Of a stretch of DNA of 64,000 bases, positions 42,623 to 59,751 are shown piece by piece. How positions within the stretch are numbered: position 1 is the first letter of the stretch; each line of letters opens with the position of its first letter. The stretch is from Thermoplasmata archaeon (GTDB lineage Archaea; Thermoplasmatota; Thermoplasmata; RBG-16-68-12; JAFNFQ01), in NCBI GenBank assembly GCA_041489255.1, contig JBGPQV010000008.1, forward strand, positions 32,917 to 96,916. The letters are read 5' to 3'. Under the pieces are notes generated by a model. That model did no database searches. It was not told where the DNA came from and saw only the letters and a program-made list of their open reading frames with translations. The position numbers and the translations under genes are program-made.

Positions 42623-42624
42623 GA

Positions 42625-42936
42625 CTAGGACCTGAGCACGATCTCGATGTTGACGCCGTCGGGGACCTGTATCCTCATGAGCTGCCTCAGCGCCCTCTCG
42701 TCGGCGTCGAGCTCGATGAGCCTCTTGTGCACGCGCATCTCCCACCTGTCCCAGGTCTCGCTGCCCTCGCCGTCGGGGCTCTTCCTCACAGGCACGACGA
42801 GCCTCTTCGTCGGCAGGGGCACGGGCCCACTCATGTCGACGCCGGTGCGCTGACTGATCGCCTTGATCTGCCTGCACACGTCATCGACCTTGCGGGGGTC
42901 GGTGCCGCTTAGCGAGATTCTAGCCTTCTGCGGCAT
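42625..42936 (-). CDS. rpsJ: 30S ribosomal protein S10
   Basis: [30 protein letters not shown]. Confidence 0.98.
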
Positions 42937-42976
42937 CTACACACACCAAGCCCCGAGACTGACCTGACCGTGCACT

Positions 42977-44248: not shown

Positions 44249-44327
44249 GCTTTTCTCTCCGTAGGCGTCCCTTATCGTCTTGGTCTATTTATGCTTTGCT
44301 TGTTGAGCGGATTCGCTCACCGAGGGA

Positions 44328-46526
44328 CTACGCGGAGTAATAGGCCTCGTCGTACGGCTGGGGGCTCAGGCCCTTGCGCTCGCGGATCTTGCGGACGACC
44401 TCTTCCTGGAGGTTCCCCGGCATCGGCTCGAAGCCAGCGTTCTCGGTCGACCAGAGGACCCTGCCCTGCGTCGCGCTCCTGATCGCGGTCGCGAACCCGA
44501 ACATCTGCGCGACGGGTACGCGTGAAGCGATGACGGTGACCTCGCCCTCCTGGTTGATGTCCTGTATCACGCCGCGTCTGCTCTGGACGTCGCCTATCGC
44601 GGCGCCCATCAGCTCCTGCGGGAGGTTCATGAAGACCTTCTGGATCGGCTCGAGGAGGATGCGCCTGCCCTGGCACATCGCGCCGTATATCGCAGACCTG
44701 ACCGCGGGGATGACCTGCGCGGGGCCGCGGTGCACCGAGTCATCGTGCAGCTTCGCGTCTACGATCCTGACCTTGACGGCCATGCACTTCTCCTGGCCGA
44801 GGGGGCCCTTGGTCATCGCCTCGATGTAGGCCTCCTTGACGAGCTCCATCGTCTCGTGCAGGCTCTGTATCCCCTTGGTCGCGTCGATGAACATGTTGGT
44901 GTCCTGGATCCAGACGACGTCCTTCGCCTCGTCCTTGCTCATGCCGAGTTCCTGCAGCTGCTTCGCCAGCGCCTTGGAGTCCTTGATCCTCTGCTTCGTC
45001 GGTATCGTGCCCTCCAAGATCGCCTTCACCACCGCGGGCTCGAGGGGCTCGACCTCCATGTAGAACCTGTTGTGCTTGTTGGGGGACTTGCCCTCGAAGG
45101 GGCCGCCTTTTCCAGCCACGCACTCCCTGTAGACTACGATCGGTGTGGAGGCGATTATCGGGACCTTGTGGTCGTTGATGATCCTGTACTCCGTGATTTC
45201 CAGGTGCAGTTCGCCCATCCCGGACATCAGGTGCTCGCCGGTCTCCTGGTTGATCTCGACCTCGATGCTCGGGTCGGCCTTGGCAATCGACCTCAGGACG
45301 TCGACCAGCTTCGGCAGGTCCGACGTGCTCTTCGCCTCGATCGCGACAGTCACGACCGGCTCGGAGTAGTGGACGATCCTCTCGAAAGGCTGCATGTTCT
45401 TGTCGTCGGAGACTGTGCTCCCCGCAATCGCGTCCTTCAAGCCGACGCAGGCGACCACGTTCCCCGCCGCTATCTCCTCGACTGGAATCCTGTCCGGACC
45501 GACGATCATCGCGACGGTCTGCACCCTCTGGGGGTTCGGCATCCCTATGACCCAGAGCTCCTGGCCCCTCTTGATCCTCCCGCTGAAGAGCCTGCCCGCC
45601 GCGACCTCGCCCGCGTGCGGGTCGATGATGATCTTGGTGATCATGAAGCCCACGGGGGCGTCCTCCTTGACGTTGAGCATCGCCTTGCCGACCGGCGATT
45701 CGAGGTCACCCTTCCAGATGACCGGTATCCTCGTCTTCTGCGCCTCGAGCGGATTGGGGAGGTGCTTGATCACAGCGTCCAACACAATCTTGTGCAGGGG
45801 TGCGATCTTGCTGAGCTCCTTCTGCGTCCCTTTCTGCAGGTGGTTGTAGACGTCTCTGAACGTGATGCCGGACCTCTTCATGAACGGCACGGAGATGGCC
45901 CACTTGTGGAACGCGGAGCCGAACAGCACGTTGCCGCTCTCCACGTTCAGCTTCCACTTCTCCTTGAGGTCGTCGGGAAGCAACTTCAGGATCCTGGTGT
46001 TGATCTCCGTGATGATCTTGACGAAGCGCTGCTGCATCTCGTCCGGCCCGACCTTCAGCTCGTTGATCAGGCGGTCGACCTTGTTGATGAAGAGCATCGG
46101 CCTGACGCGCTCCTTGATCGCCTGGCGGATGACCGTCTCCGTCTGAGGCATGATGCCCTCGACCGCGTCGTCAAGGATGATGACGCCGTCTATCGCTCTC
46201 ATCGCCCTGGTCACGTCGCCTCCGAAGTCGACGTGGCCCGGTGTGTCGATCAGGTTCACGAGGTACTGCTTGCCCTCGTACTCGTGAACCATTGAAGCGA
46301 TGGCGGCATTGATTGTGATCCCCCTGGCCTGCTCCTGCTCGTCGTAGTCCATGAAGAGCTGCTGGCCCGCCAGCTCCTCGCTCATCATGCCCGCCCCTGC
46401 GATGAGGGAGTCGCTCAGCGTGGTCTTGCCGTGGTCGATGTGCGCGGCGGTGCCGATGTTGCGGATGTACTCCTTCTTGTGAATCAGCGTCTCCGCTTTC
46501 TTTATGTTGTCCTCTTTGCGTCCCAT
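44328..46526 (-). CDS. fusA: Elongation factor 2
   Basis: AHIDHGKTT, DTPGHVDFGGDVTRAMR, diphthamide-site HRGPAQ. Confidence 0.98.
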   Translation of the reverse strand: MGRKEDNIKKAETLIHKKEYIRNIGTAAHIDHGKTTLSDSLIAGAGMMSEELAGQQLFMDYDEQEQARGITINAAIASMVHEYEGKQYLVNLIDTPGHVDFGGDVTRAMRAIDGVIILDDAVEGIMPQTETVIRQAIKERVRPMLFINKVDRLINELKVGPDEMQQRFVKIITEINTRILKLLPDDLKEKWKLNVESGNVLFGSAFHKWAISVPFMKRSGITFRDVYNHLQKGTQKELSKIAPLHKIVLDAVIKHLPNPLEAQKTRIPVIWKGDLESPVGKAMLNVKEDAPVGFMITKIIIDPHAGEVAAGRLFSGRIKRGQELWVIGMPNPQRVQTVAMIVGPDRIPVEEIAAGNVVACVGLKDAIAGSTVSDDKNMQPFERIVHYSEPVVTVAIEAKSTSDLPKLVDVLRSIAKADPSIEVEINQETGEHLMSGMGELHLEITEYRIINDHKVPIIASTPIVVYRECVAGKGGPFEGKSPNKHNRFYMEVEPLEPAVVKAILEGTIPTKQRIKDSKALAKQLQELGMSKDEAKDVVWIQDTNMFIDATKGIQSLHETMELVKEAYIEAMTKGPLGQEKCMAVKVRIVDAKLHDDSVHRGPAQVIPAVRSAIYGAMCQGRRILLEPIQKVFMNLPQELMGAAIGDVQSRRGVIQDINQEGEVTVIASRVPVAQMFGFATAIRSATQGRVLWSTENAGFEPMPGNLQEEVVRKIRERKGLSPQPYDEAYYSA

Positions 46527-46587
46527 GGGAATCACCAGACTAACTTGCTGAAATGTATAAACCTTTTTGGAGCCCCGCCGGCGGCCT

Positions 46588-47346
46588 CTAACGGGCCGAC
46601 GACGCCACCCGCTCCATCTCCTCCTTCCTCGTGATCGCGGCGGAGCTCATGTCGCCCTTCGCCGCAGCAAGTATCTCGTCGGCCAGGCACTCGTGGATCG
46701 GCTTCACGTTCTTGAAGGAGGACTGTACAGCTCCCTGGCAGATGCTCCTGAGGGCGACGTCGAGCCTGCGGGAGGGTGCTATGTCGACGGCCTTGGGCAC
46801 CGAAATGCCGCCGTACTTCAGGCGGGTGACCTCCTCGCGCGGCGCCGCCTTCTCGAGCGCGTCGACCATGACCTGGATGGGGTTGGCCTTCGCCTTCTTC
46901 TCTATTGATTCCATTGCCATGCGGACCGCCTTGTAGGCCTTCGACTTCTTGCCCGTGTAGACCTCGGTGCGCATCATGTTGTTGATGAAACGCTCGACGA
47001 TGTTCGTCTTCGCCTTTCCGAAGGGCTTGTTCGCATACCTGCCGCCCGTGTGCGGGATGACTATCGGCGTGAGGTTGATGTAGTGGCTGAGCCCCGCGTC
47101 GTGGACCACGACCTCGGAGATGTCCCACCTGTCGAAGATCAGCATCTTCATCGGGGGCTTCTTCTTCGGCTTCTTCTCCTTGACCGGCTTCGCTTCCTTG
47201 GGCTCGCCCTCCGGTGGCGGTGCTTCTCCCTCGGGTGGCGGCGGCGGGGTCGGCTCCTCTGCGGCCTCCGCTGGCGGTGGCGGCGGTGGCGTCTCGGGAG
47301 TCTCTTTGACCTCTCCTTCGACCGCCGGTTTCTCTTCTCCCTCCAT
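46588..47346 (-). CDS. rps7: 30S ribosomal protein S7 with Pro/Glu-rich N-terminal extension
   Basis: PHTGGR, APREEVTR, VDIAPSRRLD, KEEMERVASSAR. Confidence 0.96.
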   Translation of the reverse strand: MEGEEKPAVEGEVKETPETPPPPPPAEAAEEPTPPPPPEGEAPPPEGEPKEAKPVKEKKPKKKPPMKMLIFDRWDISEVVVHDAGLSHYINLTPIVIPHTGGRYANKPFGKAKTNIVERFINNMMRTEVYTGKKSKAYKAVRMAMESIEKKAKANPIQVMVDALEKAAPREEVTRLKYGGISVPKAVDIAPSRRLDVALRSICQGAVQSSFKNVKPIHECLADEILAAAKGDMSSAAITRKEEMERVASSAR

Positions 47347-47351
47347 CTGAC

Positions 47352-47789
47352 TCACCTCACCGGCTTCTCCTTCCTGCCGCGGACGAGCTCGTCCAGGGAA
47401 ACGTCGTTGACCTTGATGACCTTGAACCGCACCCCGGGGATGTCCCCGTAGGACCGCCCCATCCTCCCGCCGATCCCCTCCACGAGGACCTCGTCGTGCT
47501 CGTCGATGAAGTTGATCGCGCCGTCGCCGACGGCGAAGGCGGTGATCTGCCGCCCGTTCTTGATGAGCTGCAGCTTGACGCACTTCCTCAGCGCGGAGTT
47601 GGGCTGCTTCGCCTCTATCGCGACCTTCTCCAGGACTATGCCTTTCGCCTGCGCCGCGCCTTCCAGCGGGTCGGACTTCTCCTTGAGGTGAAGGGCCCGC
47701 CTCTTGTAGTACCTGCTCGACCAGCGATACTTCTGCCGGTCCCGGGAAAGCTTCCTTGCGGCGCCTAGACCTCTAGCCAATACGCTCAC
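47352..47789 (-). CDS. rps12: 30S ribosomal protein S12
   Basis: [20 protein letters not shown]. Confidence 0.98.
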
Positions 47790-47900
47790 TCCATGGGTGG
47801 TGCAGAGTCTAAGTGAGGAGTCCTATTTAAGCGTAATTAATCAGGCCAGGGGACGGGGCTATTGTTGAGAGGCGAGGGACATCGATCGTCCATGCCGTAG

Positions 47901-48460
47901 TTATGGACAAGTATCCACAAGACAGAATGCCAAGCGATGTATCACAATGGTCACATTCGGCCGTGGCGGGTGGGACGCAACTCGCGCGTGTTGTGGATAA
48001 GTATCCACAACTCCAAATGCCCTGCGGTGTGCCGCAGCGGTCGCAAACCACCGTGGCGGGCAAGAGGCCACTTTCGGGTTTTGTGGACAAGTATCCACAA
48101 GTCGGGTCCGCCCGGCCCGAGGAGGCGAGGTCACTTTCACCCCTCCCCCGCCAAGCCGTTCAAGCCGGGTTTGTGGACAAGTATCCACATGGAGATCGGA
48201 TGCGGGCTCGAAGTCCGGAGGGTCAATGGGAAGCGATATGTCTACTTCTGGTCGTACGCGCGAGAGAACGGGAGCAGCAGGAGGAGATGGCGGTACCTGG
48301 GGCCCGCGGGTGCCGATAGAACGAGAAGACGGGCGTTGGAGTCGCTGACCGCCCACTACTCTTCGATCAAGAAGGAGGTGGACAGGAGGTTAGCAGTGAT
48401 GAAGATGAAGGCCTCCGCTCCCTAAGGCGGCAGCGGGCGGTTGTGGATGAGTATCCACAA
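47901..48460. repeat. Five 20-bp palindromes TTGTGGA(C/T)AAGTATCCACAA in 90-bp phase
   Basis: Copies start at 47901, 47991, 48081, 48171 and 48441 (spacings 90, 90, 90, 270). Confidence 0.95.
48189..48425 (+). CDS. 78-aa basic protein resembling the SSV-type integrase N-terminal (ORF D-335-like) / DUF6788-like DNA-binding domain
   Basis: LEVRRVNGKRYVYFWSY..NG..RRRWRYLGP followed by an amphipathic helix; the ATG begins within palindrome 4. Confidence 0.75.
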   Translation: MEIGCGLEVRRVNGKRYVYFWSYARENGSSRRRWRYLGPAGADRTRRRALESLTAHYSSIKKEVDRRLAVMKMKASAP

Positions 48461-49175
48461 GTCGGTCCAATCGTTGCCGCCCCGCCTCGAACGGTCGCGG
48501 CGGGAATCTGAGGAAGAGGTCGAGTGACCCCGTAACGAGCATGCCGACGATGAACTGCTGGACCAGGTAGCCTATGACCGACGAGACGGTGCAGGCGACC
48601 GAGAAGACGATCGCGCTGCCCATCCCGTCCGCCTCGGGGTCCGACTCCCCCCAGAACTTCTTGACGACCCTCTGGCCCCACCATGAGGCGTCCTTGCCGT
48701 AGGTGTCCTGGGTAAGATACGGGTTGACTATGTTGCACCTCATCAGGTGCGCGGAGACCATGTCGAGGATCATCGAGACGATAATCCCCGGATTGGAGAT
48801 CAGATTCCCAATCATCTGGGGGAACTGGCTGATGGCGTTGAACATGTCCCCTATCTGAAGGAATATGGACAGGTCCTCGAACAGTCCCGCCAAGAATCCG
48901 AGGAAGAAACCGAAGACCGCTCCCGCCAACGCTGGTTCGAGGAAGAAGGAGAGGAAGCCCGCCACGAGCTTACCGAGGATGTATGTGAGGCCTCCCCCGG
49001 CGGTCTTCTTCATGACGTTGCCGGCGAAGTCGCAGGCTCCGGCCTCCACCTCGTAGCCCCACATGTAGTCAGACCAGAAGTCTATCTCGAAGGTGGTGCT
49101 GTCCCTGTCATTGCCTCGGTAGATGCCGTTGTGTGTAGCCCAGGAGTCCTTGAATACAAAGGAGATCGCCGTCAC
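48390..49175 (-). pseudogene. Internal fragment of a large secreted protein (Ig-like end + hydrophobic helices)
   Basis: YEVEAGACDFAGN Ig-strand motif, then GAVFGFFLGFLAGLF and further hydrophobic helices; no clear start or natural end. Confidence 0.55.
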
Positions 49176-49272
49176 GCCGGAGCTGTCCTTTCGATTCGAA
49201 GAACGAGGTATTTTCCATTTTGAGCATTGAGCACGTGCTATGAAGGGGAATCGCTTGTTCGAATCGCCTCAC

Positions 49273-49360
49273 ATTCGAACGTTGTTCGACCTTCGTTCGA
49301 CAGGTGTTCGTACCATCCTCGTACCACGCTCGTACCATGTTCGTCAACTGTTCGTTATGG
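49273..49360. repeat. Eight 11-bp tandem units, consensus gtTCGtaccat
   Basis: attcgaacgtt/gttcgaccttc/gttcgacaggt/gttcgtaccat/cctcgtaccac/gctcgtaccat/gttcgtcaact/gttcgttatgg. Confidence 0.85.
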
Positions 49361-49945
49361 ACAGGACGTGCATTCGCATCGAAGATTGCCCGGACCATAC
49401 TCTTACCGACTTGATACCAAGCCCTTAACAACATGAAATCGAACTGGCGAGATGTTCGCGTCCAACACGCTGAGTGTTCGATTGAGACAGAATCACGCCT
49501 GCCATGTTAGGGATGGTTTGAGCCCAACGGGGAAGTCATCAGATGGTTCCAGCCGCGGTCTTGGATGCACATTGTTAAGAGTTGCGAAAGCGGAACCGCT
49601 GAAAGCCCATATCATGAATATGCCCGGAAGCTGATGACAGATGGCAGGCCGACAGGGCCATACCAACACATTGCATCGTGCATTCTGATTGATGAACATG
49701 CCGCTGCGTTGCGTTTGCGAGATGCGCATCTGTCACGTCAAGGACCGTCCTATCAGCTGGAGATTCTCCATCTACTTCACGACTAGCCTAGATGACTGCG
49801 CAAAAACGTAGGCGTTGCCTTTCGCGGGATATGCCCGGCCGAATCGACCGATCTTGCGGGGGATCGACGATTACCGCATCTCCAAGCGCCCAAGAGGGTC
49901 GGTGGAGACGCGGTGGTCGCCGGCTGCGAGTAGGATTCTTGAGGC

Positions 49946-51721
49946 ATGTCCTCGTGCAGGGAGAACGAGGGCATCCGCAATCCCTGTGCCCCATCCTCCC
50001 AGATATATCTTTATTCCACTACCGCCATGACGAGCAACGCGTTCAAGATGCGGCGGTGGGAGATGATTGGCGGATCTCGTTTCGTTCGTGGAGGCCGATT
50101 TGCGGCGGGTCGATATCGCCGAAACGGTGGAAGTCCCAGAGGTTATGGCTGGCCCGCCACCATCGAGCTCCTCTCGCCTCTCGACGCCGCAATCTCAGAT
50201 TCCCGCAATTCCTTCATGATGATCATCTGCCCCTCATGCAGATTCGTTCACGAGGAGGGCGGCATCTGCATCTCCCGCCAATTCGGCGACCTCACGCTGT
50301 GGAACCGCTCCATGAGCCAGGGCGAGATACGTGCCCTCAGCTTCCTGGACAGGGGGCTGAATGGGATAGTCGTGCCGAGAGGGCTGTTCATGCAGTCGCA
50401 GTTCTTCGCGTCGATGAACGACTCCTCGTACGCCAGCTTCGGACCGGGCAACCCGCTCCTCGGCTCGACCGTCATGGGCATCGACAACGCCCGGGAGCTG
50501 AACTCGCGGGTCGTGCAGCAGCTCATAGCCGCCAACCTGACGCTGGCGGAGGCGTGGGCCTGGATCCTCGGGCTGGAGAGGAACTCCACGGGGCAGAACA
50601 CTTCCTTCCCCCTGGTGGTGACGAGGGAGGTCTACACGATAGGCTTCGACCCGATGCTCATGAACGTCCTGCCCAACATGACGGTGGAGAACAGCGGCAA
50701 CAGCTCGCTGCCCGCCCCGCCGACGCGCGTGCCGACCTACTGGGAACTGATGTGGAACTCGTTCACGGGACTCGTCTCGGCGGTGTGGAACGCTGTGGTG
50801 GCGGTTGCCCAGTTCATCGCAAACGTGATGCTGGCGGTGATCAAGTGGGGCATAGGGCTGGCTAAGGCGATTGCCGAGGGGAAGGGGTTGGAGTACATCT
50901 ACGAGACGGTGGTGAAGCCGTTCGTGGAGGCGCTGCTGGCGTTCATACGATTCCTAATTGAATTCTTCAAAGCGATTCTGAATGTCTTATTCACACCGGT
51001 TCGTCTGTTCTTGGAAAGCTTAGGCAGGGCTGTGAGGGATGGGTTCAGGCCGGCCTACAGCCAAATCGAGATGGCAGAGGCGTGCGACATGAATGAAGCG
51101 GGCGACGCAGCTGCCCAAGGGTATGCTGACAGGGCAGCGATGTTGGTTACTGATATCTTCGTCTCGATAATGATGACCGCGATACTGATTTACCTAATAC
51201 TCATGGCTGTCGATGTCACGGTGAAGCCCGTGGCAACTCTCTTGGCGGGAATCGTGATCATGATTGCATTGGGAATGGTGCTCAGTGCGATGGCTATTGC
51301 TGGCTTCAGCGGAGGATATTCCGGACTTCCGCCCGCGCCCGGCGACCCCGGTGGAGCCCCTAATGCGGTCATGGGCATCATCCCGGACGATTATTGGCTT
51401 ACTGAACGTATATTCTCAACGACCCTCCGGTTTTGCGTAACATTGGCGATGCTTATCCTCGACGACCTGAGTGTTCTTGGGGCGATATCCATCACCTTAG
51501 GCGTCGTGAGTCTAGCCCTGATCTTCATTGGTGCGACATTCGACAAGCGAAGCAACGAGGGGCGATGGTTGCTGGCTATCGGCCTTTTCCTAGGATTGCT
51601 ATCTGTCATCCTGGCCACGATTTCCGTGGCGATGCAAGGATTTGGCCTTCACACAGGAGTCGGAATCGCCATGTCGATTGGCGCGTTTGGGATGGCTTAC
51701 CTGAACGTGTTGTCGATGTAG
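49946..51721 (+). CDS. 5'-truncated LamG-linked protein with multi-helical hydrophobic C-terminus (putative toxin cassette)
   Basis: Recognisable sequence begins at DLTLWNRSMSQGEI (LamG C-terminal strand, 50288); amphipathic helices then several TM helices; the first ~115 codons look unrelated. Confidence 0.65.
   Translation: MSSCRENEGIRNPCAPSSQIYLYSTTAMTSNAFKMRRWEMIGGSRFVRGGRFAAGRYRRNGGSPRGYGWPATIELLSPLDAAISDSRNSFMMIICPSCRFVHEEGGICISRQFGDLTLWNRSMSQGEIRALSFLDRGLNGIVVPRGLFMQSQFFASMNDSSYASFGPGNPLLGSTVMGIDNARELNSRVVQQLIAANLTLAEAWAWILGLERNSTGQNTSFPLVVTREVYTIGFDPMLMNVLPNMTVENSGNSSLPAPPTRVPTYWELMWNSFTGLVSAVWNAVVAVAQFIANVMLAVIKWGIGLAKAIAEGKGLEYIYETVVKPFVEALLAFIRFLIEFFKAILNVLFTPVRLFLESLGRAVRDGFRPAYSQIEMAEACDMNEAGDAAAQGYADRAAMLVTDIFVSIMMTAILIYLILMAVDVTVKPVATLLAGIVIMIALGMVLSAMAIAGFSGGYSGLPPAPGDPGGAPNAVMGIIPDDYWLTERIFSTTLRFCVTLAMLILDDLSVLGAISITLGVVSLALIFIGATFDKRSNEGRWLLAIGLFLGLLSVILATISVAMQGFGLHTGVGIAMSIGAFGMAYLNVLSM
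50288..50506 (+). repeat. 219-bp direct repeat, copy 1
   Basis: Colinear, without indels, with 52601-52819; first ~135 nt differ only synonymously. Confidence 0.92.
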
Positions 51722-51741
51722 TGAGGAGAAAGAGATGTCAA

Positions 51742-52278
51742 ATGAATGAGCATGATGATTTGGGAGCCATAGTCTCCGAAGAGAGATTGGTATTCCATCT
51801 CGCTGTCGCAAGCGTGCTCGCAATCGCCGTCATTCTCAGTGGGTGGTTGGCATTCGCTATCCTGCTATATCCTGCCCTCACCCGTGCGTTTTCAGGAGGT
51901 GATCCATGGGGTGGAAACAATCCTCTTGGAATCGTCTTGGGCTTTCTGGCAAGTCTGTATGGCTTCATCTTGAGTGTCGCTGCGTTATCCTATAAGAGAC
52001 GCGCGAGGATCTACTGGGCGGGAATATCCCCGTCTTGGATCCCGCCCGGAAAGAGATCAAAGAGATACTGGCCTTTTTCTGAAATCAATGATTTGGAATT
52101 GACCGTCAGAGAAGATGGATTCTGGGTGGTTCGCTTCGCCTTGGAGTTGAAGGGTCCGTTGAGGTGGATTCTGCCGATTCGTCCGAACAAGGAAATCCTC
52201 AGCAGACCCATGATGACCAAAGCCGGATTCGCACTCGCCCATTTGAGGTCGCGTGGAATTCGGGAACGAAGAGCGTAG
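51742..52278 (+). CDS. 2-TM protein with soluble C-terminal domain (immunity-like)
   Basis: GTGAGGAG RBS, starts 20 nt after the upstream stop; two TM helices followed by a beta-rich domain. Confidence 0.75.
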   Translation: MNEHDDLGAIVSEERLVFHLAVASVLAIAVILSGWLAFAILLYPALTRAFSGGDPWGGNNPLGIVLGFLASLYGFILSVAALSYKRRARIYWAGISPSWIPPGKRSKRYWPFSEINDLELTVREDGFWVVRFALELKGPLRWILPIRPNKEILSRPMMTKAGFALAHLRSRGIRERRA

Positions 52279-52427
52279 GATTCAACCCATGCCGCATCAT
52301 TCAGAAATCGTGCGCGATAGGGGAGGAGAATACGGCCACTCCCTATTAGCCAAACGGCTTGACAACGATTCGCGAAAGCAAGTGGCCCCTAGTCTGAACT
52401 TGATTTCCGATGTACGGGTCGCATTGA

Positions 52428-52837
52428 ACCAGTGGCACGTCGTCACGCTTACATACGACGGACAGATTTCCACGGTCTATCTGGACGGCGAGAAGATACA
52501 CTCGAAGACGTGGGAGCAGGCATGGTTGCCGCACCCGTCGGACCCGTACCTCTGCGTCTTCAACGGGGCGGGCGCCTCGCCCTTCAACGGCTACATCGAC
52601 GATCTGACGCTCTGGAACCGCTCCATGAGCCAGGGAGAGATACGCGCCCTCAGCTTCCTGGACAGGGGGCTGAACGGGATCGTCGTGCCGAGAGGGTTGT
52701 TCATGCAGTCGCAGTTCTTCGCGTCGATGAACTCCTCCACCGGTTCCGTCGTCCACTTGGGCAACCCACTCCCCGGTTCGACGACCACGGGCAATGACAA
52801 CTCGCGCGAGCTGAACTCGACCTTGTGCAGTTATTGA
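52428..52837 (+). pseudogene. Orphan LamG (concanavalin A-like) domain fragment
   Basis: NQWHVVTLTYDG..VYLDG..FNGYIDDLTLWNRSMSQGEI; truncated at both ends. Confidence 0.8.
52601..52819 (+). repeat. 219-bp direct repeat, copy 2
   Basis: Same peptide as 50288-50506 up to FFASMN, then divergent but alignable to RELNS. Confidence 0.92.
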
Positions 52838-52983
52838 TGAGGTACATCTAACCAAAGTCGTCTATCGTCGGCCTACCGATTGTCCCCTGGCATGGCGGGA
52901 ATACACTTCTTTCGATTCGGATTCTTCCTACAAACCCGTAGCAGAGAAAGACTCTTTTCGCGGGCTGTCGTCAAATCACGCGT

Positions 52984-53514
52984 CTACGCTATTGATCCGT
53001 CATCCAGCTGCTTGATGATCGACCTACCCTGCATCGTGATGTTGTAGATGTGCGGCGGCACACCGCGCCTTATCGCCCTGGACTTCTCCTTGCTGACCAG
53101 CTGCAGGACCTCCAGGACCCTCAGGTGGTTGTAGAGGCCGGGCTCAGACAGGCCCAGCTCCTCAGACAGTTCCACGACAGTGCAGTCGGGGTTCGCCGCG
53201 AGGAACTCGAGAATAGCCTTCTTGCTCTCGCTGAGAGCTTCTGTGGTCGTCATCTTGGTGGGCTTGGTCGGCTCGAGCGTGAGCCTCTCGTAGATCCTCG
53301 TGCCCTTCTCAGAAGGACTGATGATAACACTGACCAGCTCGTTCTCCTCCGCCTTGATCAGGTGGCGGTAGACCGCTTCCGGAGCGATCCCCAGCATTTC
53401 CGCGAGCTCGGGGATCTGCGTGTCGCGGTTCTTGAAGAGCTTGTTCTCGACAACGATTTCAAGGACCTCGCGTTGTCGTTCTGTCAGCCCTCTTACCTCG
53501 TCGACTGCAATCAT
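52984..53514 (-). CDS. Tandem HTH/ArsR-like wHTH transcriptional regulator
   Basis: LTERQREVL..IPELAEMLGIAPEAVYRHL and TVVELSEELGLSEPGLYNHLRVLE..YNITMQG. Confidence 0.85.
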   Translation of the reverse strand: MIAVDEVRGLTERQREVLEIVVENKLFKNRDTQIPELAEMLGIAPEAVYRHLIKAEENELVSVIISPSEKGTRIYERLTLEPTKPTKMTTTEALSESKKAILEFLAANPDCTVVELSEELGLSEPGLYNHLRVLEVLQLVSKEKSRAIRRGVPPHIYNITMQGRSIIKQLDDGSIA

Positions 53515-53587
53515 GCCTAGTAGATTAGGGCGGTAGCTCTTAAAGCTTCACGGCTAGAATGCCAATCCGCGACTATCACTCGCGTTA

Positions 53588-54658
53588 TTACGCGTACTGA
53601 TAGATATTGTCAGGGAGGCGGCCCTTGTTGAACTCCTCTTCCAACTCCTCGAGCATCAGTATGCGCTTGTACGTCGGGGGATGCGTCGAGAACAGCTCGT
53701 TCGCCTTGGTCCAGTGACTCTTCGCCTCGTGCTCCATCGCCTTTCTCAGCTCGAACTCATCGATCTCCCCGTCCTTGTTGAGGTCGTACTCCGCCATCTT
53801 GTCCTTCAGGAGTGCGGCGTCCTCACTCGCCTTGACGGGGTCCCCGATGAAGAACGCGCGCAGGCCGCTCGGCTCCTTCTCGGCGGGTGTGAGTGAGAGC
53901 CCGTAGGCGATCTTGACCAGGGCGGACCTGAGGTAGCGGGGGCTTCCGGTCGCGGCAGCGGAATACGCGTCCGCATAGTACTCCCTCGTCCTCGAGAGAT
54001 GCAGCACGAGAAGCTGCGTGATGAAGTAGACGAAGTAGGATATCAAGGCGACCGCCAAGGCCGCTGCGATGGCCCCTCCCTTGTCCTTCGAGCTCCTGCC
54101 GCCGCTACTCGCGCGGATCATCACCAAGCCTCCCCTCGCGATTATGTAGGCGACGATGGGGATCGCGGACACGAGAGTCATGGTGATCACGTCGCCGTGC
54201 CTCAGGTGCCCTATCTCGTGCGCGATGACGCCCTCTATCTCCTGCTTGTTGAGGCGCTCGAGCAGGCCGCTGTGGAGGACCAGCTCTGATGAGCGTATCG
54301 TCCTCCCGAAGACGAACGCGTTCGGTGTCGGGTCCTCTATCACCGCGACCTTGGGCATCGGGACCTGCGCCTTTGCGGCGAGGCTCTGCACCGTGTCGTA
54401 GAGCCACGGGTTGTCCTGCCTCTGGATATAGTACTTGATATGCGCCGCCCACCGCACGATCGCAGGGGAGATCAGCCACTGCAGGAAGATGAAGCCAACG
54501 CAGACGAGGACCAGTACGACGAGCCCGAACGGGAAGAAGTCCAGGTCGAGGAAGTAGTCGATCACCGCCACGATGCCAAGGAGGAACAGCGAGAACATCG
54601 TGAGGAGCAGTATCACCGTCGCCTCGGAGCCGCGCCTCAGCTTTCCCAACGAGCCCAT
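53588..54658 (-). CDS. htpX: Zinc metalloprotease HtpX (M48) with EF-hand-like insert
   Basis: PNAFVFG, HEIGH, REYYAD, STHPP; DLNKDGEIDEFE. Confidence 0.93.
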   Translation of the reverse strand: MGSLGKLRRGSEATVILLLTMFSLFLLGIVAVIDYFLDLDFFPFGLVVLVLVCVGFIFLQWLISPAIVRWAAHIKYYIQRQDNPWLYDTVQSLAAKAQVPMPKVAVIEDPTPNAFVFGRTIRSSELVLHSGLLERLNKQEIEGVIAHEIGHLRHGDVITMTLVSAIPIVAYIIARGGLVMIRASSGGRSSKDKGGAIAAALAVALISYFVYFITQLLVLHLSRTREYYADAYSAAATGSPRYLRSALVKIAYGLSLTPAEKEPSGLRAFFIGDPVKASEDAALLKDKMAEYDLNKDGEIDEFELRKAMEHEAKSHWTKANELFSTHPPTYKRILMLEELEEEFNKGRLPDNIYQYA

Positions 54659-54703
54659 GCGGAACCGTATTATCCCCCGCCAGATATCAGCGTTTCGTTA
54701 ATC

Positions 54704-55480
54704 ATGGTGGATCTGGTCGAGTCGCTGAACTGCTCGCACTGCGGCGCTCCCCTGGACCTGAGCCCCGGGGAGATCATAGTCACGTGCAGGTATTGCGGCT
54801 CCGACGTGCGGATTGCGGGAGAGAAGAGGTTCCTCCTGAAGCACTCGATGGTCGCGACGCAGTACCAGGAGGAGGCGATCAGGCAGGTGATTGCTTCCTG
54901 GATGGCGGGAGGTGCATTCAGGCCGGACGACCTCGCGAGATCGTCGCGGATCGAGAGCCTCGATTGTGTCTATCTTCCCTTCTACGTCTTCGAGGTCGAC
55001 GCATCGACGACCTGGCGGGGAGTCCTGTCGAGGACGGGACAGCCGTTCGAGAAGAGCGGCGAGCTGAGGAAGAACTACTTCTGGAAGATCCTGGGGAGGC
55101 GCTCCTCGCCCTTCCCCACGCGCGAGTACAGGCTGCCCCTCGCTGCGAAGACCACGTTCGACATGTCGCAGATGGTCAAGGGCTCCAAGTTCCTGAACGC
55201 GGAGATGGACGAGGACGAGGCGAAGAAGCTAGTCGTGGATGAGGTGACTGAGCACCAGAAGCAGTTGCTACTCCAGGAAGAGGTGGACGACGTCATCGAG
55301 GCGAAGACCGCCGTCGACGTCAAGGACGCCGAGTTCGTCCACGCCCCGATCTGGTTCATGCGCTACAGCTACCGCAAGAAGATGTACGAGATGACCGTCG
55401 ACGGCGCGTCGGGCGAGGTCATCAAGGCCGACGTGCCGCCGCCGGAGACCGGCTTCGGGTCGCTGTTCTCCCGGCGATGA
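54704..55480 (+). CDS. Zinc-ribbon protein (YdjG-like)
   Basis: CSHCGAP..CRYCGS, VYLPFYVF, HAPIWFMRYSY..VDGASGEV. Confidence 0.82.
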   Translation: MVDLVESLNCSHCGAPLDLSPGEIIVTCRYCGSDVRIAGEKRFLLKHSMVATQYQEEAIRQVIASWMAGGAFRPDDLARSSRIESLDCVYLPFYVFEVDASTTWRGVLSRTGQPFEKSGELRKNYFWKILGRRSSPFPTREYRLPLAAKTTFDMSQMVKGSKFLNAEMDEDEAKKLVVDEVTEHQKQLLLQEEVDDVIEAKTAVDVKDAEFVHAPIWFMRYSYRKKMYEMTVDGASGEVIKADVPPPETGFGSLFSRR

Positions 55481-55595
55481 CTGCCTCCAGCTGACTTCTC
55501 ACCGCCGCGATTCTTGTGAATAGTCTTTTAAGCGAGACCATCATTGTCTAGCCGCAATTGATGGGAGCGACGCGCTCCATAAGGGAGGAAAAGAC

Positions 55596-56132
55596 TTGCC
55601 CGATATCAGAGACAAAGTAGAGGAAGACCGCGGTCTTCTGAAAAGAATACAGATGCACATCCCAGGCTACGCCGGCTACCGCCGGCGCGAGGACCTGAGG
55701 GCGGCGGACAAGCTGCTGCGCATACAGATCGCAGACAAGCTCACCGCCATCCGCAAGGATGTGGAGAACACGAGGGGCTTCATGACGCGCAGCTACATGC
55801 GCGACAACATCGAGCAGCTCGGCAACCTCATCCTCAGCTTCCAGGAGGTCGAGGGCAAGCTGCGCTACTCCGCCGGCGGGTACTCCGGCCTCTCAGCCGA
55901 CATCCGCATCGAGGAGGGCGAGCTGGAGAAGCTCTACGAGTACGACTACACCATGGTCACAGCGCTTGACGCGATCGCGCAGGCGGTGCCGCCGATGGAC
56001 ACGGCGGTGAAGGCGAAGGACAAGAACGCCGCGGCGTCGGGCATCGACACCGTCCAGAACAGCCTCAACGCGCTGCACACAGCGTTCAAGCAGAGGCTTG
56101 TCATCATCACGGGGACGGAGGCGGTGAGATAA
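55596..56132 (+). CDS. Helical/coiled-coil protein conserved with SPFH operons
   Basis: IPGYAGYRRREDLRAADKLLR..GYSG..KLYEYD; GGGAGG RBS, TTG start. Confidence 0.82.
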   Translation: MPDIRDKVEEDRGLLKRIQMHIPGYAGYRRREDLRAADKLLRIQIADKLTAIRKDVENTRGFMTRSYMRDNIEQLGNLILSFQEVEGKLRYSAGGYSGLSADIRIEEGELEKLYEYDYTMVTALDAIAQAVPPMDTAVKAKDKNAAASGIDTVQNSLNALHTAFKQRLVIITGTEAVR

Positions 56133-57325
56133 TGTCGTTCGCAGCACTCAGCACGATAGGGCTATTCGGCGGCGGGAAGAGGTCGGACCAGACGGCGGCG
56201 CACAAGGAGGGCCTCAGCGGCTCCATGACGATTGCCTGGGACGACCAGTACAAGCGCGGCAACATCATGTGGAAGGTCCCGCGCAACATCAGGATGAACG
56301 ACAACATCGTCGTCAGGGAAGACGAGATCGCGGTGTTCTACCGAGACGGGAAGGCGCTCGCCTACCTCGACGTCCCGAACAGGTACGCCCTGACGAGCCA
56401 GAACGCCCCGATAGTCGGCTGGCTCGTGAAGGTCTTCTCAGGGGTGCAGCAGCAGGCCGAGGTCTATTACCTGCAGAAGCGCATCTTCGACGGGAAGTTC
56501 GGCAGCAAGGACCCCTTCATCTTCGAGGACCCCGACTTCGACCTCATCGAGCTGAGGACGTTCGGCGAGTTCCGCTACAAGATCGCGTCCGCCGAGAACT
56601 TCATCAACCAGTTCGTCGGCACATTCGGCCTCGCGACCAGCGTAGACGTCGAGAACAGGATCAGGGAGGAGCTGGTGAAGCAGCTGTACGTGACGATAGG
56701 CAACATGAAAGGCCAGGGGATGAAGGTCACCCAGCTCGCGATCAGCCTCAACCAGATCGAGCAGTTCACCCTGGAGAACGCCAAGCCCCACTTCGGGAAC
56801 CTGGGCATCGAGATAGTCCAGCTCTCGGGCCTCAACATACCCATACCCGAGGAGATCAAGGAGGCCATACGCAAGGCGTCCGGGGCGAGGGTCCTCGGCC
56901 GCGCCGGCCCCGGCGGCGTGGCGGCGTACCAGCAGTTCGCCGTCGCCGATTCGATGAAGACGGCTGCGGCGCAGCCTGGCGGCGCGGCGGGGCTCGGCAT
57001 GGGCCTCGGTGCCGGTATGGGCATGGGTTACGCCATGGGCTCGCAGGTGCCGGGGATGATGCAGCCCGCGCAGCAAGCCCAGCAGACGAAGGCGTGCGTG
57101 AAATGCGGCAAGCAGATACCCGTGAGCCTGAGGTTCTGCGGTGAGTGCGGCGCCGAGCAAGTCGAGGGCAAGCCTTGCGTCAAGTGCGGGAAGACCGTCG
57201 CACCGGGACTGAAGTTCTGCGGTGAGTGCGGTACGTCCCAGACGATTGCATGCCCGGCGTGCAAGGCCGAGAACCCGGGCAACCTGAAGTTCTGCGGCAA
57301 CTGCGGGAAGCCGCTGGCGGGATGA
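56132..57325 (+). CDS. SPFH/band-7 domain protein with double zinc ribbons (YdjI-like)
   Basis: IVVREDEIAVFYRDGK, Gly-rich GMGLGAGMGMG, three CxxC..CxxC ribbons. Confidence 0.9.
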   Translation: MSFAALSTIGLFGGGKRSDQTAAHKEGLSGSMTIAWDDQYKRGNIMWKVPRNIRMNDNIVVREDEIAVFYRDGKALAYLDVPNRYALTSQNAPIVGWLVKVFSGVQQQAEVYYLQKRIFDGKFGSKDPFIFEDPDFDLIELRTFGEFRYKIASAENFINQFVGTFGLATSVDVENRIREELVKQLYVTIGNMKGQGMKVTQLAISLNQIEQFTLENAKPHFGNLGIEIVQLSGLNIPIPEEIKEAIRKASGARVLGRAGPGGVAAYQQFAVADSMKTAAAQPGGAAGLGMGLGAGMGMGYAMGSQVPGMMQPAQQAQQTKACVKCGKQIPVSLRFCGECGAEQVEGKPCVKCGKTVAPGLKFCGECGTSQTIACPACKAENPGNLKFCGNCGKPLAG

Positions 57326-57326
57326 G

Positions 57327-57791
57327 GTGATGAACTTGGCCGCACCTCCGCCGCCCCCATTCCAGCCCCCGGTCCAGCAGCAGCCGATGGGCCGGTCCCT
57401 TTCGACGGCCGCCCTGGCGGCGGTCGCCATCCTGGCGTTCTTCATAATCGGGCTGATCTACGTCTATATTTTCGTCTTCAGCGAGATGGACATCATATCC
57501 GCCTACTGGTGGTCCGGCTTCGTCGGGTTCATCTTCGCCTTCATATTCTACCTGGTCCACGCTGCTGTCGAGGAACCCGTGACGAGGATAATCAGCGGGA
57601 CTTTCTTCGCGCTCGGCGCGATGTTCTTCTACGCCGCGATCGGCTTCGGGAGCGGGGACCCCAACTCGAAGATCCTGTGGCTCATCGTGCTGTCGGTCAT
57701 AGTCCTGGTCGTCCTGCTGTTCGTCTGGAGGATGGCCGCGCAGGGAACGGCGGACGAGCAGAGGCGGGCGATGAGGAAGAGGACGCCTTAA
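57327..57791 (+). CDS. 4-TM membrane protein
   Basis: Four hydrophobic helices; translationally coupled to the SPFH gene. Confidence 0.82.
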   Translation: MMNLAAPPPPPFQPPVQQQPMGRSLSTAALAAVAILAFFIIGLIYVYIFVFSEMDIISAYWWSGFVGFIFAFIFYLVHAAVEEPVTRIISGTFFALGAMFFYAAIGFGSGDPNSKILWLIVLSVIVLVVLLFVWRMAAQGTADEQRRAMRKRTP

Positions 57792-57861
57792 TCATGGGCA
57801 TCGACGCTCAGAAGGTTTCGCTCTCAGCACAAGGAAGCTCGCCCTGCCGCGATGTCCATGG

Positions 57862-58011
57862 TCACTGCTTGAACTCGCTGAACTCCTCGTAGTCCCCCAT
57901 AATCGCGCCGCAGTTGGGGCACTCGTCCTCATCCCATTCCAGCTCGTATCCACATTCAGGACAGCGCGCCGTCTCGAACCACCCTGGAAACCTGATACTC
58001 TTCCCTCTCAT
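57862..58011 (-). CDS. 49-aa zinc-ribbon protein
   Basis: Manual translation MRGKSIRFPGWFETARCPECGYELEWDEDECPNCGAIMGDYEEFSEFKQ*. Confidence 0.7.
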   Translation of the reverse strand: MRGKSIRFPGWFETARCPECGYELEWDEDECPNCGAIMGDYEEFSEFKQ

Positions 58012-58039
58012 AAACCAGACGGTCTAATGAAGGGACGCG

Positions 58040-59719: not shown

Positions 59720-59751
59720 GAAGGTGTCAATGCTGGGGTGCTCGCTTTAAT

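What the first reader, a model, noticed from the sequence alone, without database searches (positions are those of the whole stretch)
49946..52837. LamG-anchored hydrophobic cassette + immunity-like gene + orphan repeat: candidate archaeal polymorphic toxin locus
Seen: a 219-bp segment encoding the end of a LamG domain occurs twice (50288-50506, 52601-52819), and its first part differs only synonymously. Copy 1 leads into amphipathic and then multi-TM helices, where codons look visibly more AT-rich after about 50940. It is followed 20 nt later by an AT-richer 2-TM gene with its own RBS. Copy 2 is a truncated orphan. Neither copy has a signal peptide or intact N-terminus. Knowledge: polymorphic toxin loci (Rhs/CdiA) keep orphan C-terminal cassettes, each led by a conserved homology stretch and followed by an immunity gene. 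Inference: silent, swappable membrane-active tips for a giant LamG surface protein encoded elsewhere.
Basis: partly seen in the sequence, partly recalled or inferred. Interest (0 to 1): 0.72.

Follow-up and report, generated by a model that had tools for sequence, protein, structure and literature searches.

The report
Archaeal swappable membrane-tail cassette locus
This stretch of a sediment archaeon's genome holds a spare copy of the variable, membrane-spanning tail of a giant surface protein together with its matching small membrane gene, an arrangement that looks like the toxin and immunity cassette arrays bacteria use to fight or recognise neighbours.

Summary
The 219-bp duplication is real: 83.6% identical, and the first 44 codons differ at 8 sites, all synonymous.

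- The same genome encodes two giant proteins of about 3000 aa (signal peptide, BNR, FN3, LamG). Their last roughly 480 aa match copy 1.
- Across 23 complete family members, near-identical conserved regions switch abruptly to unrelated multi-TM tails.
- 21 of 23 are followed directly by a small TM gene, and that gene's type tracks the tail type.
- Giant plus tandem "orphan" arrays recur in other Methanomassiliicoccales and in other orders of the phylum.

Two points are new.
- Orphans in this lineage, copy 1 included, begin with a conserved in-frame leader of about 50 aa carrying a CxxC..VH..C motif and their own start codons. They may therefore not be silent.
- The same-genus genome lacks this 3.9-kb segment and the whole family.

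No toxin domain, fold match, RNA data or binding prediction supports toxicity.

Best reading, 0.6: a polymorphic membrane effector with a cognate partner, organised as a cassette system. Self-recognition or a variable anchor remain possible. I rate it a new variant of a known kind.

The parts
48930..52868 (.). Segment present here but absent from the same-genus genome G001. There the two flanks (98% and 96% identical) lie 22 nt apart. The break cuts inside ORF 48390-49175(-) and inside element Y, so G001 carries a deletion.
49292..49987 (+). Non-coding-looking upstream unit. 49292-50503 recurs at 82% in metagenome contig L041 within a housekeeping context. 49627-49987 is 82% identical to the region just upstream of the C2 giant gene. 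49274-49653 also recurs in G001:C8. A TATA-like ATATATCTTTATT follows at 50003-50015.
   Evidence: sequence read
49946..51721 (+). Orphan cassette ORF (copy 1). It is 591 aa from the first ATG; other in-frame ATGs lie at 50027, 50048 and 50063. It has no signal peptide.
50132..50281 (+). Leader X: GYGWPATIELLSPL...DSR..MMIICPSCRFVHEEGGIC. It is a conserved CxxC-x2-VH-x5-C (zinc-knuckle-like) peptide in frame with the cassette. Four copies exist in this genome.
50288..50506 (+). Repeat copy 1: the last LamG strand (DLTLWNRSMSQGEIR) plus the start of the conserved stalk.
50288..50960 (+). Conserved module shared with the giants (GLNGIVVPRG ... VENSGN ... WNAVVAV ... VVKPFVEALLAF). It is 83% identical in DNA to C16 up to 50944 and 75% to C2 up to 50973. 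The model shows a small alpha/beta domain, a Pro-rich linker, then the first long hydrophobic helices.
50961..51718 (+). Variable multi-TM tail; its start is approximate, in the range 50940-50990. It is related to the tail of metagenome orphan L031:9665-11428 (41% over 206 aa) and weakly to the C2 giant tail (30%). It is unrelated to the C16 tail. GC is lower than in the conserved module.
51742..52278 (+). Small cognate gene, 178 aa: a TM hairpin (model helices 14-50 and 61-85), then five strands and a C-terminal helix. No Pfam or NCBIfam family matches. Its homologue follows the L031 orphan that has the related tail (32%, E 1e-21).
52253..52837 (+). Copy 2: a truncated orphan of the X-less class that begins mid-LamG (..NQWHVVTLTYDG). 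LamG homology starts at about 52426 and repeat copy 2 is 52601-52819. It ends ..GNDNSRELNSTLCSY* with no tail and no small gene.
52821..52887 (+). Element Y: a conserved sequence of about 65 nt that closes the array. It also lies downstream of the C16 giant (40201-40267, 90%) and of the X remnant in C2 (206798-206893, 83%).

Best explanation
The locus is a dispersed 'orphan' module of a polymorphic C-terminal cassette system built on giant LamG/FN3 surface proteins of Methanomassiliicoccales.

A cassette has two parts: a variable multi-TM tail, and a small gene right behind it encoding a two-TM protein whose type matches the tail.

Shown here:
- A conserved module is followed by unrelated tails beyond a sharp boundary.
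- The tail and the small gene co-vary.
- Tandem orphans follow the giants.
- Presence among relatives is patchy and changed recently.

Inferred:
- The tail is a membrane-acting effector or identity determinant displayed or delivered by the giant protein.
- The small protein is its cognate protector or partner in the producer's membrane.
- Orphans supply alternative tail and partner pairs, which can replace the tail of a full-length gene by homologous recombination through the roughly 0.7-0.9-kb conserved module.

The window carries one intact orphan (leader X, module, tail, partner gene) and the 3'-truncated remnant of a second orphan of another class.

My sub-probabilities: cassette architecture 0.9; conflict or recognition function 0.75; tail is toxic and the small gene is immunity 0.5.
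For: Giants in the same genome. Two ORFs of 3041 and 2984 aa carry an N-terminal hydrophobic signal, BNR, FN3, PPC, TSP3 and two LamG domains. Their C-termini match copy 1 at 64% and 52%.

Sharp boundary. The C16 tail region vs L029, and C2 vs L030, are about 100% identical for roughly 190-200 residues, then 10-30%. Of 68 pairs that are at least 60% identical in the 180 aa before the boundary, 62 have unrelated tails.

Partner gene. 21 of 23 complete members have a small TM ORF directly downstream; the 2 misses lie 121 and 312 nt from contig ends.

Co-variation over 210 pairs of 21 modules:
- tail and small gene both related: 12
- tail only: 6
- small gene only: 0
- neither: 192
One example is L024 vs L029, with the pre-boundary region at 38%, the tail at 32% and the small gene at 37%.

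Arrays.
- G011 has a giant, a small gene, an 839-aa orphan, a small gene, an 817-aa orphan, a small gene and a fragment.
- L031 has a giant and two orphans.
- The same gene order holds in other orders of the phylum.

Accessory distribution. 14 of 79 genomes of the order have a match, as do 7 of 401 in the phylum sample. The same-genus genome G001 lacks this segment and the giants.

GC. Tails average 0.541 and small genes 0.552, against 0.609 before the boundary. The tail is lower in 22 of 23.

Coding constraint. 8 synonymous and 0 non-synonymous changes between the two window copies show that both derive from genes under purifying selection, not from a local duplication that then decayed.
Against: - No known toxin, pre-toxin, protease or secretion domain was found. 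Pfam and NCBIfam give nothing for tails or small proteins.
- The tail model is a generic helical/TM bundle with no fold match: Foldseek gives no hit at E<=1e-3, and the best VIA Z of 11.3 is within the range of chance for helical bundles.
- A C-terminal multi-TM region of a Sec-exported protein would ordinarily just be its membrane anchor. How it could reach another cell is unexplained.
- 6 tail-related pairs have no detectably related small gene. Four of these involve the C2 giant, whose 103-aa small gene looks truncated.
- The lower GC of tails may partly reflect hydrophobic codon usage.
- The orphans have start codons and a conserved leader, unlike classic silent orphans.
- Several metagenome contigs come from related samples, so the pair counts are not independent.
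Confidence: 0.6

Rival explanations
1. Self or kin recognition without killing. The variable TM tail and its two-TM partner form a strain-specific identity pair in the membrane. This resembles Proteus IdsD/IdsE, which I recall from memory. The giant ectodomain mediates cell-to-cell contact, and orphans store alternative identities.
For: The evidence is the same architecture: sharp polymorphism, a co-varying membrane partner and orphan arrays. No enzymatic or known pore-forming toxin domain is present. The adhesin-type ectodomain has BNR, FN3, LamG and TSP3 domains.
Against: No binding evidence was obtained. Recognition determinants are expected on exposed parts, whereas the variable part here is mostly membrane-embedded.
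Confidence: 0.2
2. A structural reading. The tail is only a fast-evolving membrane anchor of a giant surface protein, and the small protein is an insertion or assembly helper. The 'orphans' are decaying products of gene duplication and internal deletion with no function.
For: The tail is C-terminal and multi-TM, as an anchor would be. Many fragments are clearly dead: copy 2, the X remnants in C1 and C2, and L041. The upstream unit of copy 1 resembles the upstream region of a giant gene.
Against: Unrelated tails sit behind about 100% identical modules, which needs recombination rather than drift. Orphans of 500-840 aa stay open in a 59% GC genome and recur with the same junction types in different contigs. 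An assembly helper would not need to co-vary in discrete types.
Confidence: 0.13
3. Variation to escape viruses or predators. Cassette switching changes the giant protein's membrane-proximal part to evade something that exploits it, and the small gene is a co-adapted subunit.
For: The distribution is patchy and turnover is rapid. The orphan reservoir is as expected for variation systems.
Against: The variable part is membrane-embedded rather than exposed. The exposed domains are conserved. No invertase, recombinase or DGR lies nearby (ORF lists).
Confidence: 0.05
4. The duplication is an assembly artefact or a chance similarity.
For: The genome is a metagenome-assembled draft of 41 contigs.
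Against: The copies are 16% divergent, with a pattern of purely synonymous change. Contigs from several sediment runs cover the region without differences, one of them spanning 50390-52727. Homologous arrays exist in other genomes.
Confidence: 0.01

Closest known systems
Bacterial polymorphic toxin systems with orphan modules (CdiA-CT/CdiI, Rhs-CT/RhsI). Their features are recalled from memory; Zhang et al. 2012 and Ruhe et al. 2020 were seen only as entries in the reference list of PMC8416519.
   Same: A large exported protein; a conserved body with a sharp switch to unrelated C-termini; a small cognate gene immediately downstream; tandem orphan tail and partner modules that keep a piece of the conserved region; lower GC in the variable part; patchy distribution.
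   Different: This system is archaeal. It has no FHA, YD or RHS repeats, no VENN or PxxxxDPxGL demarcation, no CdiB, and no Pfam toxin domain. The variable part is a 4-8-TM helical tail. Many orphans carry their own conserved CCHC leader and start codon.
Membrane-depolarising polymorphic effectors with membrane immunity proteins (CdiA-CT of E. coli EC93, T7SS TspA/TsaI, T6SS Tse4/Tsi4, pore-forming colicins). All recalled from memory.
   Same: A hydrophobic or helical effector part is paired with a small multi-pass membrane protein encoded directly downstream.
   Different: No sequence or fold relationship was found. The delivery route is unknown. Activity is untested.
VARTIG module of Thermococcales (Makarova et al. 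2021, PMC8416519; I read the abstract and passages)
   Same: An archaeal large surface protein with a hypervariable C-terminal part attributed to recombination, variable downstream genes, and an organisation the authors liken to polymorphic toxin systems. Its function is also unknown.
   Different: VARTIG varies in a C-terminal Ig domain and is reported only in Thermococcales. Here the body is BNR/FN3/LamG, the variable part is a multi-TM tail, the partner is a two-TM protein, and orphans have a zinc-knuckle-like leader.
Predicted archaeal polymorphic toxin systems (Makarova et al. 2019, mBio). This paper is not held in the library; I know it only from its citation in PMC8416519.
   Same: It is cited as predicting contact-dependent toxin delivery systems in many archaea, none characterised experimentally.
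   Different: I could not check whether this family is included. Searches for Methanomassiliicoccales with 'polymorphic toxin' found 0 papers. Public names of the 16 closest proteins are 'hypothetical protein' or none.
Neisseria pilE/pilS silent cassettes and shufflons (recalled from memory)
   Same: Partial gene copies lacking the 5' part serve as donors, with short conserved sequences flanking the cassettes. X and Y here could be counterparts.
   Different: There is no evidence of programmed switching. All cassettes point in one direction, no recombinase is adjacent, and each cassette brings a partner gene.

Membership tests
Polymorphic toxin system (generic definition, recalled) | Large exported protein with an N-terminal secretion signal | tested here: met
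   The giants start with a charged n-region followed by a hydrophobic segment (MRSLAAKLASVFCVAVILTV...; a TM is predicted at residue 23 or 63 of the open frames)..
Polymorphic toxin system (generic definition, recalled) | Conserved body, then unrelated C-termini beyond a sharp boundary | tested here: met
   About 100% identity drops to 10-30% within roughly 30 residues in two pairs. 62 of 68 close pairs have unrelated tails.
Polymorphic toxin system (generic definition, recalled) | Cognate small gene immediately downstream that co-varies with the C-terminus | tested here: met
   21 of 23 have an adjacent small TM gene. Pair counts are 12 both related, 6 tail only, 0 small gene only and 192 neither. 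The pairs are not independent.
Polymorphic toxin system (generic definition, recalled) | Orphan C-terminal modules downstream of, or dispersed from, the main gene | tested here: met
   Arrays are present in G011, L030, L031, L033-L035 and L060-L062. The window itself is a dispersed orphan.
Polymorphic toxin system (generic definition, recalled) | C-terminal domain is toxic and the downstream protein neutralises it | not testable with these tools
   No toxin family or fold was found. An expression and rescue assay is needed.
CDI (CdiA/CdiB/CdiI) | FHA-type repeats, VENN demarcation, CdiB partner | tested here: not met
   Pfam on both giants shows only BNR, FN3, Pur_ac_phosph_N, PPC, TSP3 and Laminin_G_3. 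A conserved VENSGN exists about 100 aa before the boundary, but it is not the CdiA motif in context.
Rhs/YD-repeat toxins | YD repeats and RHS core | tested here: not met
   No such Pfam hit in either giant.
VARTIG (PMC8416519) | Hypervariable C-terminal Ig domain of a large Ig-domain protein; Thermococcales | tested here: not met
   The variable part here is a multi-TM tail, and the organism belongs to Methanomassiliicoccales.
Laminin_G_3 (PF13385), for copy 2 | Profile match above the gathering score | tested here: met
   59.3 bits against a cutoff of 27.6, E 6.1e-16, profile positions 69-150 of 151 only, so it is a partial domain.
Membrane-anchored bacterial PH (bPH) proteins, including SunI-like immunity proteins, for the small gene | TM segment(s) followed by a PH-like beta sandwich capped by a C-terminal helix | tested here: inconclusive
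   The model has a TM hairpin, five strands and a C-terminal helix, at pLDDT 70. Pfam bPH_7 at E 0.016 and bPH_8 at E 0.088 each hit only 1 of 15 members, below the cutoff. Fold searches gave no clear match.
Zinc knuckle / zinc ribbon, for leader X | Four metal ligands in conserved spacing | tested here: inconclusive
   C33, C36 and C46 are invariant, and V39 and H40 are at least 90% conserved, in 14 copies from two divergent lineages. There is no Pfam match, and no structure or metal data.

The most novel reading that the evidence does not exclude
This may be an undescribed archaeal cell-to-cell conflict system. A giant glycan-binding fibre presents or delivers a polymorphic membrane-inserting tail, and a two-TM protein gives type-specific protection. 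The 'orphans' would then not be silent. Each would be translated from its own start with a conserved CCHC zinc-knuckle leader, acting either as a new export or targeting tag for short stand-alone effectors, or as a recombination-guiding cassette border that is also read as protein.
Probability: 0.25. Interest if true: 0.85.

Novelty: new variant of a known kind. Interest (0 to 1): 0.7.

Why it matters
Polymorphic toxin and immunity arrays are central to bacterial competition and kin discrimination. In archaea they have only been predicted, and according to PMC8416519 none had been characterised.

This family gives a concrete and fairly widespread test case. A profile search found 423 cluster representatives in public data, and its parts are clearly delimited:
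- a sharp recombination boundary
- discrete tail and partner types
- a leader specific to the orphans

If the tails act on membranes, this would show how organisms with a single membrane and an S-layer attack or recognise each other. It would also add a new class of membrane effector and immunity pair. If they do not, it is a striking case of cassette-style diversification of a membrane anchor, which itself needs explaining.

Tried and rejected
- Structure of the 480-aa tail (AlphaFold with 57 sequences, pLDDT 70, pTM 0.34). Foldseek against PDB gave no hit at E<=1e-3. VIA wide gave a best Z of 11.3 on generic helical bundles, which is within the chance range stated for helical models. This supports neither a pore-forming nor a fusogenic fold.
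- Structure of the small protein. Foldseek gave no hit at E<=1e-3. The VIA list was filled by helical hairpins and the beta domain was barely tested.
- Complex prediction of the tail (326 aa, 4-row alignment) with the small protein (178 aa, 3-row alignment): no verdict, score 0.00 in two runs. This is not evidence either way.
- Family and look-alike searches. NCBIfam found nothing at E<=0.1 except one chance-level transporter hit. The ESM Atlas best score was 0.77, a lead only. Rfam on 47700-53200 gave only a sub-threshold sRNA hit. No tRNA lies in 40000-60000.
- An RNA structure in leader X is not supported. The covariation term is -0.02, and 2 of 19 pairs carry a double change.
- A word-based search for X in longer proteins found only the window's own protein. 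X is not detected at the giants' N-termini or in the distant arrays.
- Expression: no RNA holder is listed among the sequencing runs.
- A joint 52578->52825 seen in contigs is the paralogous C16 locus (31-nt LamG remnant plus Y), not a deletion variant.
- The window-type small gene was sought as a stand-alone 'orphan immunity' gene in 79 genomes of the order. Only two weak hits appeared (E about 2e-4), one of them again next to a module.
- The idea that X derives from the giants' own 5' ends is rejected. An HMM search of all six frames found only the 4 orphan-associated copies.
Makarova et al. 2019 is not held.
Full report
**1. The observation**

The window holds two copies of a 219-bp segment, 50288-50506 and 52601-52819. 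They are 83.6% identical. The repeat finder, MAFFT and blastn (224 nt, 83.5%) report the same pair.

- In the first 44 codons, 8 codons differ and all 8 changes are synonymous. In codons 45-73, 17 differ and 13 change the residue.
- Copy 2 lies in ORF 52253-52837. This ORF matches Pfam Laminin_G_3 over profile positions 69-150 of 151 (E 6.1e-16).
- Copy 1 lies in ORF 49946-51721. That ORF continues into predicted TM segments.
- GC falls from 0.65-0.66 to 0.52 near 50900 and stays low through the next gene.
- That next gene starts at 51742, 20 nt after the stop, behind a GAGGAG. It has two predicted TM helices.
- The arrangement is not an assembly artefact. The copies differ at 16% of sites. 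Contigs from several sediment runs cover the region without differences, and one spans 50390-52727.

A run of 8 synonymous and 0 non-synonymous changes means both copies come from genes that stayed under purifying selection while they diverged. This is two family members placed in tandem. It is not a local duplication that then decayed.

**2. The full-length genes exist**

The window is G000:C8:32917-96916. The same genome has two giant ORFs, C16:41266-50388(-) of 3041 aa and C2:194938-203889(+) of 2984 aa. Their C-terminal regions match residues about 100-530 of the copy-1 ORF at 64% and 52%.

Pfam finds BNR-like, FN3 and Pur_ac_phosph_N repeats, PPC, TSP3 and two Laminin_G_3 domains. It finds nothing in the last roughly 500 aa. 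Both proteins begin with a charged and then hydrophobic signal-like segment.

A relative's record title places the group in Methanomassiliicoccales.

**3. The family and its boundary**

I aligned the 300-aa region that starts at DLTLWNRS, taken from eight copies (A2). A profile search of 1.84 billion cluster representatives found 423 proteins at E<=1e-3, 168 at E<=1e-10 and 46 at E<=1e-30.

Among the 150 listed, lengths fall into two groups. One is giants of 2000-6000 aa with the module about 450-500 aa from the end. The other is short forms of 400-1000 aa.

The 16 closest proteins are named 'hypothetical protein' or have no name.

Conservation stops at a fixed place, around VVKPFVEALLAFIRW.
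- The C16 giant and metagenome contig L029 are about 100% identical for roughly 190 residues and then 10-30%.
- C2 and L030 behave the same way.
- Of 68 pairs that are at least 60% identical in the 180 aa before the boundary, 62 have tails with no detectable similarity.
- In the window, DNA homology to C16 ends at 50944 and to C2 at 50973. This is exactly where GC drops.
- Over 23 members, GC averages 0.609 before the boundary, 0.541 in tails and 0.552 in the small genes. The tail is lower in 22 of 23, and the genome is 0.590. Hydrophobic codon usage may contribute to this.

**4. The small gene is a cognate partner**

Of 23 module-bearing ORFs with a complete 3' end, 21 have a small ORF with predicted TM segments directly downstream, often overlapping. 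These come from G000, G011 and the metagenome contigs. The two exceptions end 121 and 312 nt before a contig end.

Among the 210 pairs of the 21 modules:
- tail related and small gene related: 12
- tail only: 6
- small gene only: 0
- neither: 192

The pairs are not independent, because some contigs are close kin. The pattern still holds across distant lineages. G011's L024 and contig L029 are 38% identical before the boundary, 32% in the tail and 37% in the small protein.

The window's tail is 41% identical to that of orphan L031:9665-11428 (E 6e-43), and their small proteins are 32% identical (E 1e-21).

Four of the six tail-only pairs involve the C2 giant. Its 103-aa small gene abuts a degenerate X copy and looks truncated.

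Most small proteins share one plan: a short N-terminus, a TM hairpin, then about 90 aa rich in strands. The model of the window protein shows helices 14-50 and 61-85, five strands and a C-terminal helix, at pLDDT 70. A bPH-like fold is suspected but not shown.

**5. Orphan arrays**

- In G011, a different family of the order, contig C8 carries in one direction: a 2888-aa giant, a 173-aa two-TM gene, an 839-aa orphan, a small TM gene, an 817-aa orphan, a small TM gene, and a 174-aa orphan fragment.
- L031 has a giant followed by two orphans, each with a small gene. L030, L033, L034 and L035 show further tandem pairs.
- The same order (giant, small two-TM gene, orphan, small two-TM gene) is found in three genomes of other orders of the phylum.
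- Distribution is patchy. 14 of 79 genomes of the order and 6 of 10 genera have a match at E<=1e-8, as do 7 of 401 in a sample of the phylum.

**6. Two classes of orphan, and leader X**

Copy 1 is not just a broken N-terminus. Residues 64-114 of its ORF (50132-50281) form a conserved leader, GYGWPATLELLSP...DSR..KM.ICPxCxxVHExGGxC.

- I found 15 copies in the loci examined. Each is followed in the same reading frame by giant-derived sequence.
- The junction differs between copies. It falls at DLTLWNRS (the window, L029, L030, L043), at GNxNPLEL (L030, L031, L033, L035, and the C1 and C2 remnants), elsewhere in L034, and at KANTLLLTPNDWS in G011.
- Three Cys are invariant, and the V and H of the motif are at least 90% conserved, across 14 copies from the two divergent lineages.
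- In ten equal-length copies, differences by codon position are 446, 436 and 696. Variable sites number 22, 21 and 36 of 43. This indicates coding constraint.
- Blocks of 8-15 fully conserved nucleotides suggest DNA-level constraint as well. There is no support for an RNA structure.
- In-frame ATGs with purine-rich sequence lie 12-35 codons upstream (read). In the window they are at 50027, 50048 and 50063, behind a TATA-like ATATATCTTTATT.
- X occurs four times in G000, always with orphans or their remnants and never at the giants' 5' ends. It is absent from the distant arrays.

The second class lacks X and begins in mid-LamG at ..QWHVVTLTYDG. It includes L031 orphan 1, L039, L040, L042 and the window's copy 2. 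Copy 2 is cut after ..GNDNSRELN, where the roughly 65-nt element Y begins (52821-52887). Y also closes the C16 locus and an X remnant in C2.

**7. The locus is recent and dispensable**

In the same-genus genome G001, window 44500-48929 (98% identical) and 52869-56500 (96%) lie 22 nt apart. The junction cuts inside ORF 48390-49175(-) and inside Y, so G001 carries a deletion of 48930-52868.

G001 also shows no module match and no DNA similarity to either giant's body. Its completeness is 94%.

The unit 49292-50503 recurs at 82% in contig L041 among housekeeping genes, truncated soon after the module starts. Window 49627-49987 is 82% identical to the region just upstream of the C2 giant.

**8. 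What it most likely is**

The architecture meets every sequence-level criterion of a polymorphic toxin system that can be tested here. Those criteria are recalled from memory.

The function is inferred. I think the most likely reading is a conflict or recognition system in which the tail acts in membranes and the small protein is its type-specific protector or partner. Orphans would serve as exchangeable tail and partner pairs, through the conserved module as the homology arm.

Against the toxin reading:
- No toxin family was found.
- No fold match was found.
- A C-terminal multi-TM region would ordinarily be an anchor.
- The delivery route is unknown.

The rivals are non-lethal self-recognition, a variable anchor with an assembly helper, and variation to evade viruses. 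An expression and rescue test would separate them.

**9. Comparison and novelty**

The closest analogues are:
- CdiA and Rhs orphan arrays. Their repeats and motifs were tested and are not present.
- Membrane-depolarising effectors with membrane immunity proteins, recalled from memory.
- The VARTIG module of Thermococcales, which varies in an Ig domain (PMC8416519; abstract and passages read).

That paper states that archaeal polymorphic toxin systems were predicted in 2019 and had not been characterised. I could not read the 2019 paper.

- A search for Methanomassiliicoccales with 'polymorphic toxin' found 0 papers.
- I scanned the listings of three other searches and saw no description of this family.

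I therefore rate it a new variant of a known kind. Its distinctive features are the multi-TM variable tail, the two-TM partner and the CCHC-led orphans.

Noticed in passing
window 47901-48465: Five copies of a 25-nt palindromic repeat (TTGTGGACAAGTATCCACAA), four spaced exactly 90 nt apart and the fifth 270 nt on. They sit just upstream of rps12 and overlap the 5' part of ORF 47937-48425. The likely real product starts at MEIGCGLEVRRVNGKRYVYFWSYARENG (about 48162-48425) and has no Pfam or NCBIfam match. Paralogues lie at C5:118399-118743 (84%) and C1:376613-376885 (42%). The repeats could be operator or iteron sites of a small DNA-binding protein of a mobile element.
   Followed up: partly
window 48390-49175 (-): A 261-aa ORF with a Gly/Phe/Leu-rich hydrophobic middle part. 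It has a 63%-identical paralogue at C4:33122-33695 and a 74% DNA match in G001:C36. Its first 82 codons are removed by the G001 deletion. No family is assigned.
   Followed up: partly
L053 (G000:C1:374001-382000): A remnant of leader X (C1:378288-378983, minus strand) lies among ORFs that look like HEPN and nucleotidyltransferase pairs, read by eye and not run through a family search. Two copies of the MELGCGL..YLYFWRYE small-protein family are nearby. One of their upstream regions contains GCGWPATID, which resembles the first residues of X.
   Followed up: no
L051 3600-4220 and L052 205-556 (G000 C16 and C2, flanking the giants): This is the conserved 3' end of another large surface-protein family with a C-terminal TM anchor. 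It has more than 20 partial copies at 70-83% in the same-genus genome G001. Window 49274-49653 matches G001:C8:53523-53902 (84%), just downstream of one such copy.
   Followed up: partly
window 46588-47583 (-): The ribosomal protein S7 frame is open for about 130 extra codons upstream, encoding a Pro/Glu/Lys-rich stretch that overlaps the end of the S12 gene. I did not check whether this extension is translated.
   Followed up: no
L052 10177-11919 (G000:C2:204177-205919): Two ORFs of 260 and 318 aa of unknown function sit between the degenerate X copy behind the C2 giant and the second X-Y remnant. They may be cargo inserted into the array.
   Followed up: no
L037:5555-6109: An orphan whose leader keeps GYGWPATLDLL but has lost the CxxC..H..C part. 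This shows that the leader can decay while the cassette stays open.
   Followed up: no
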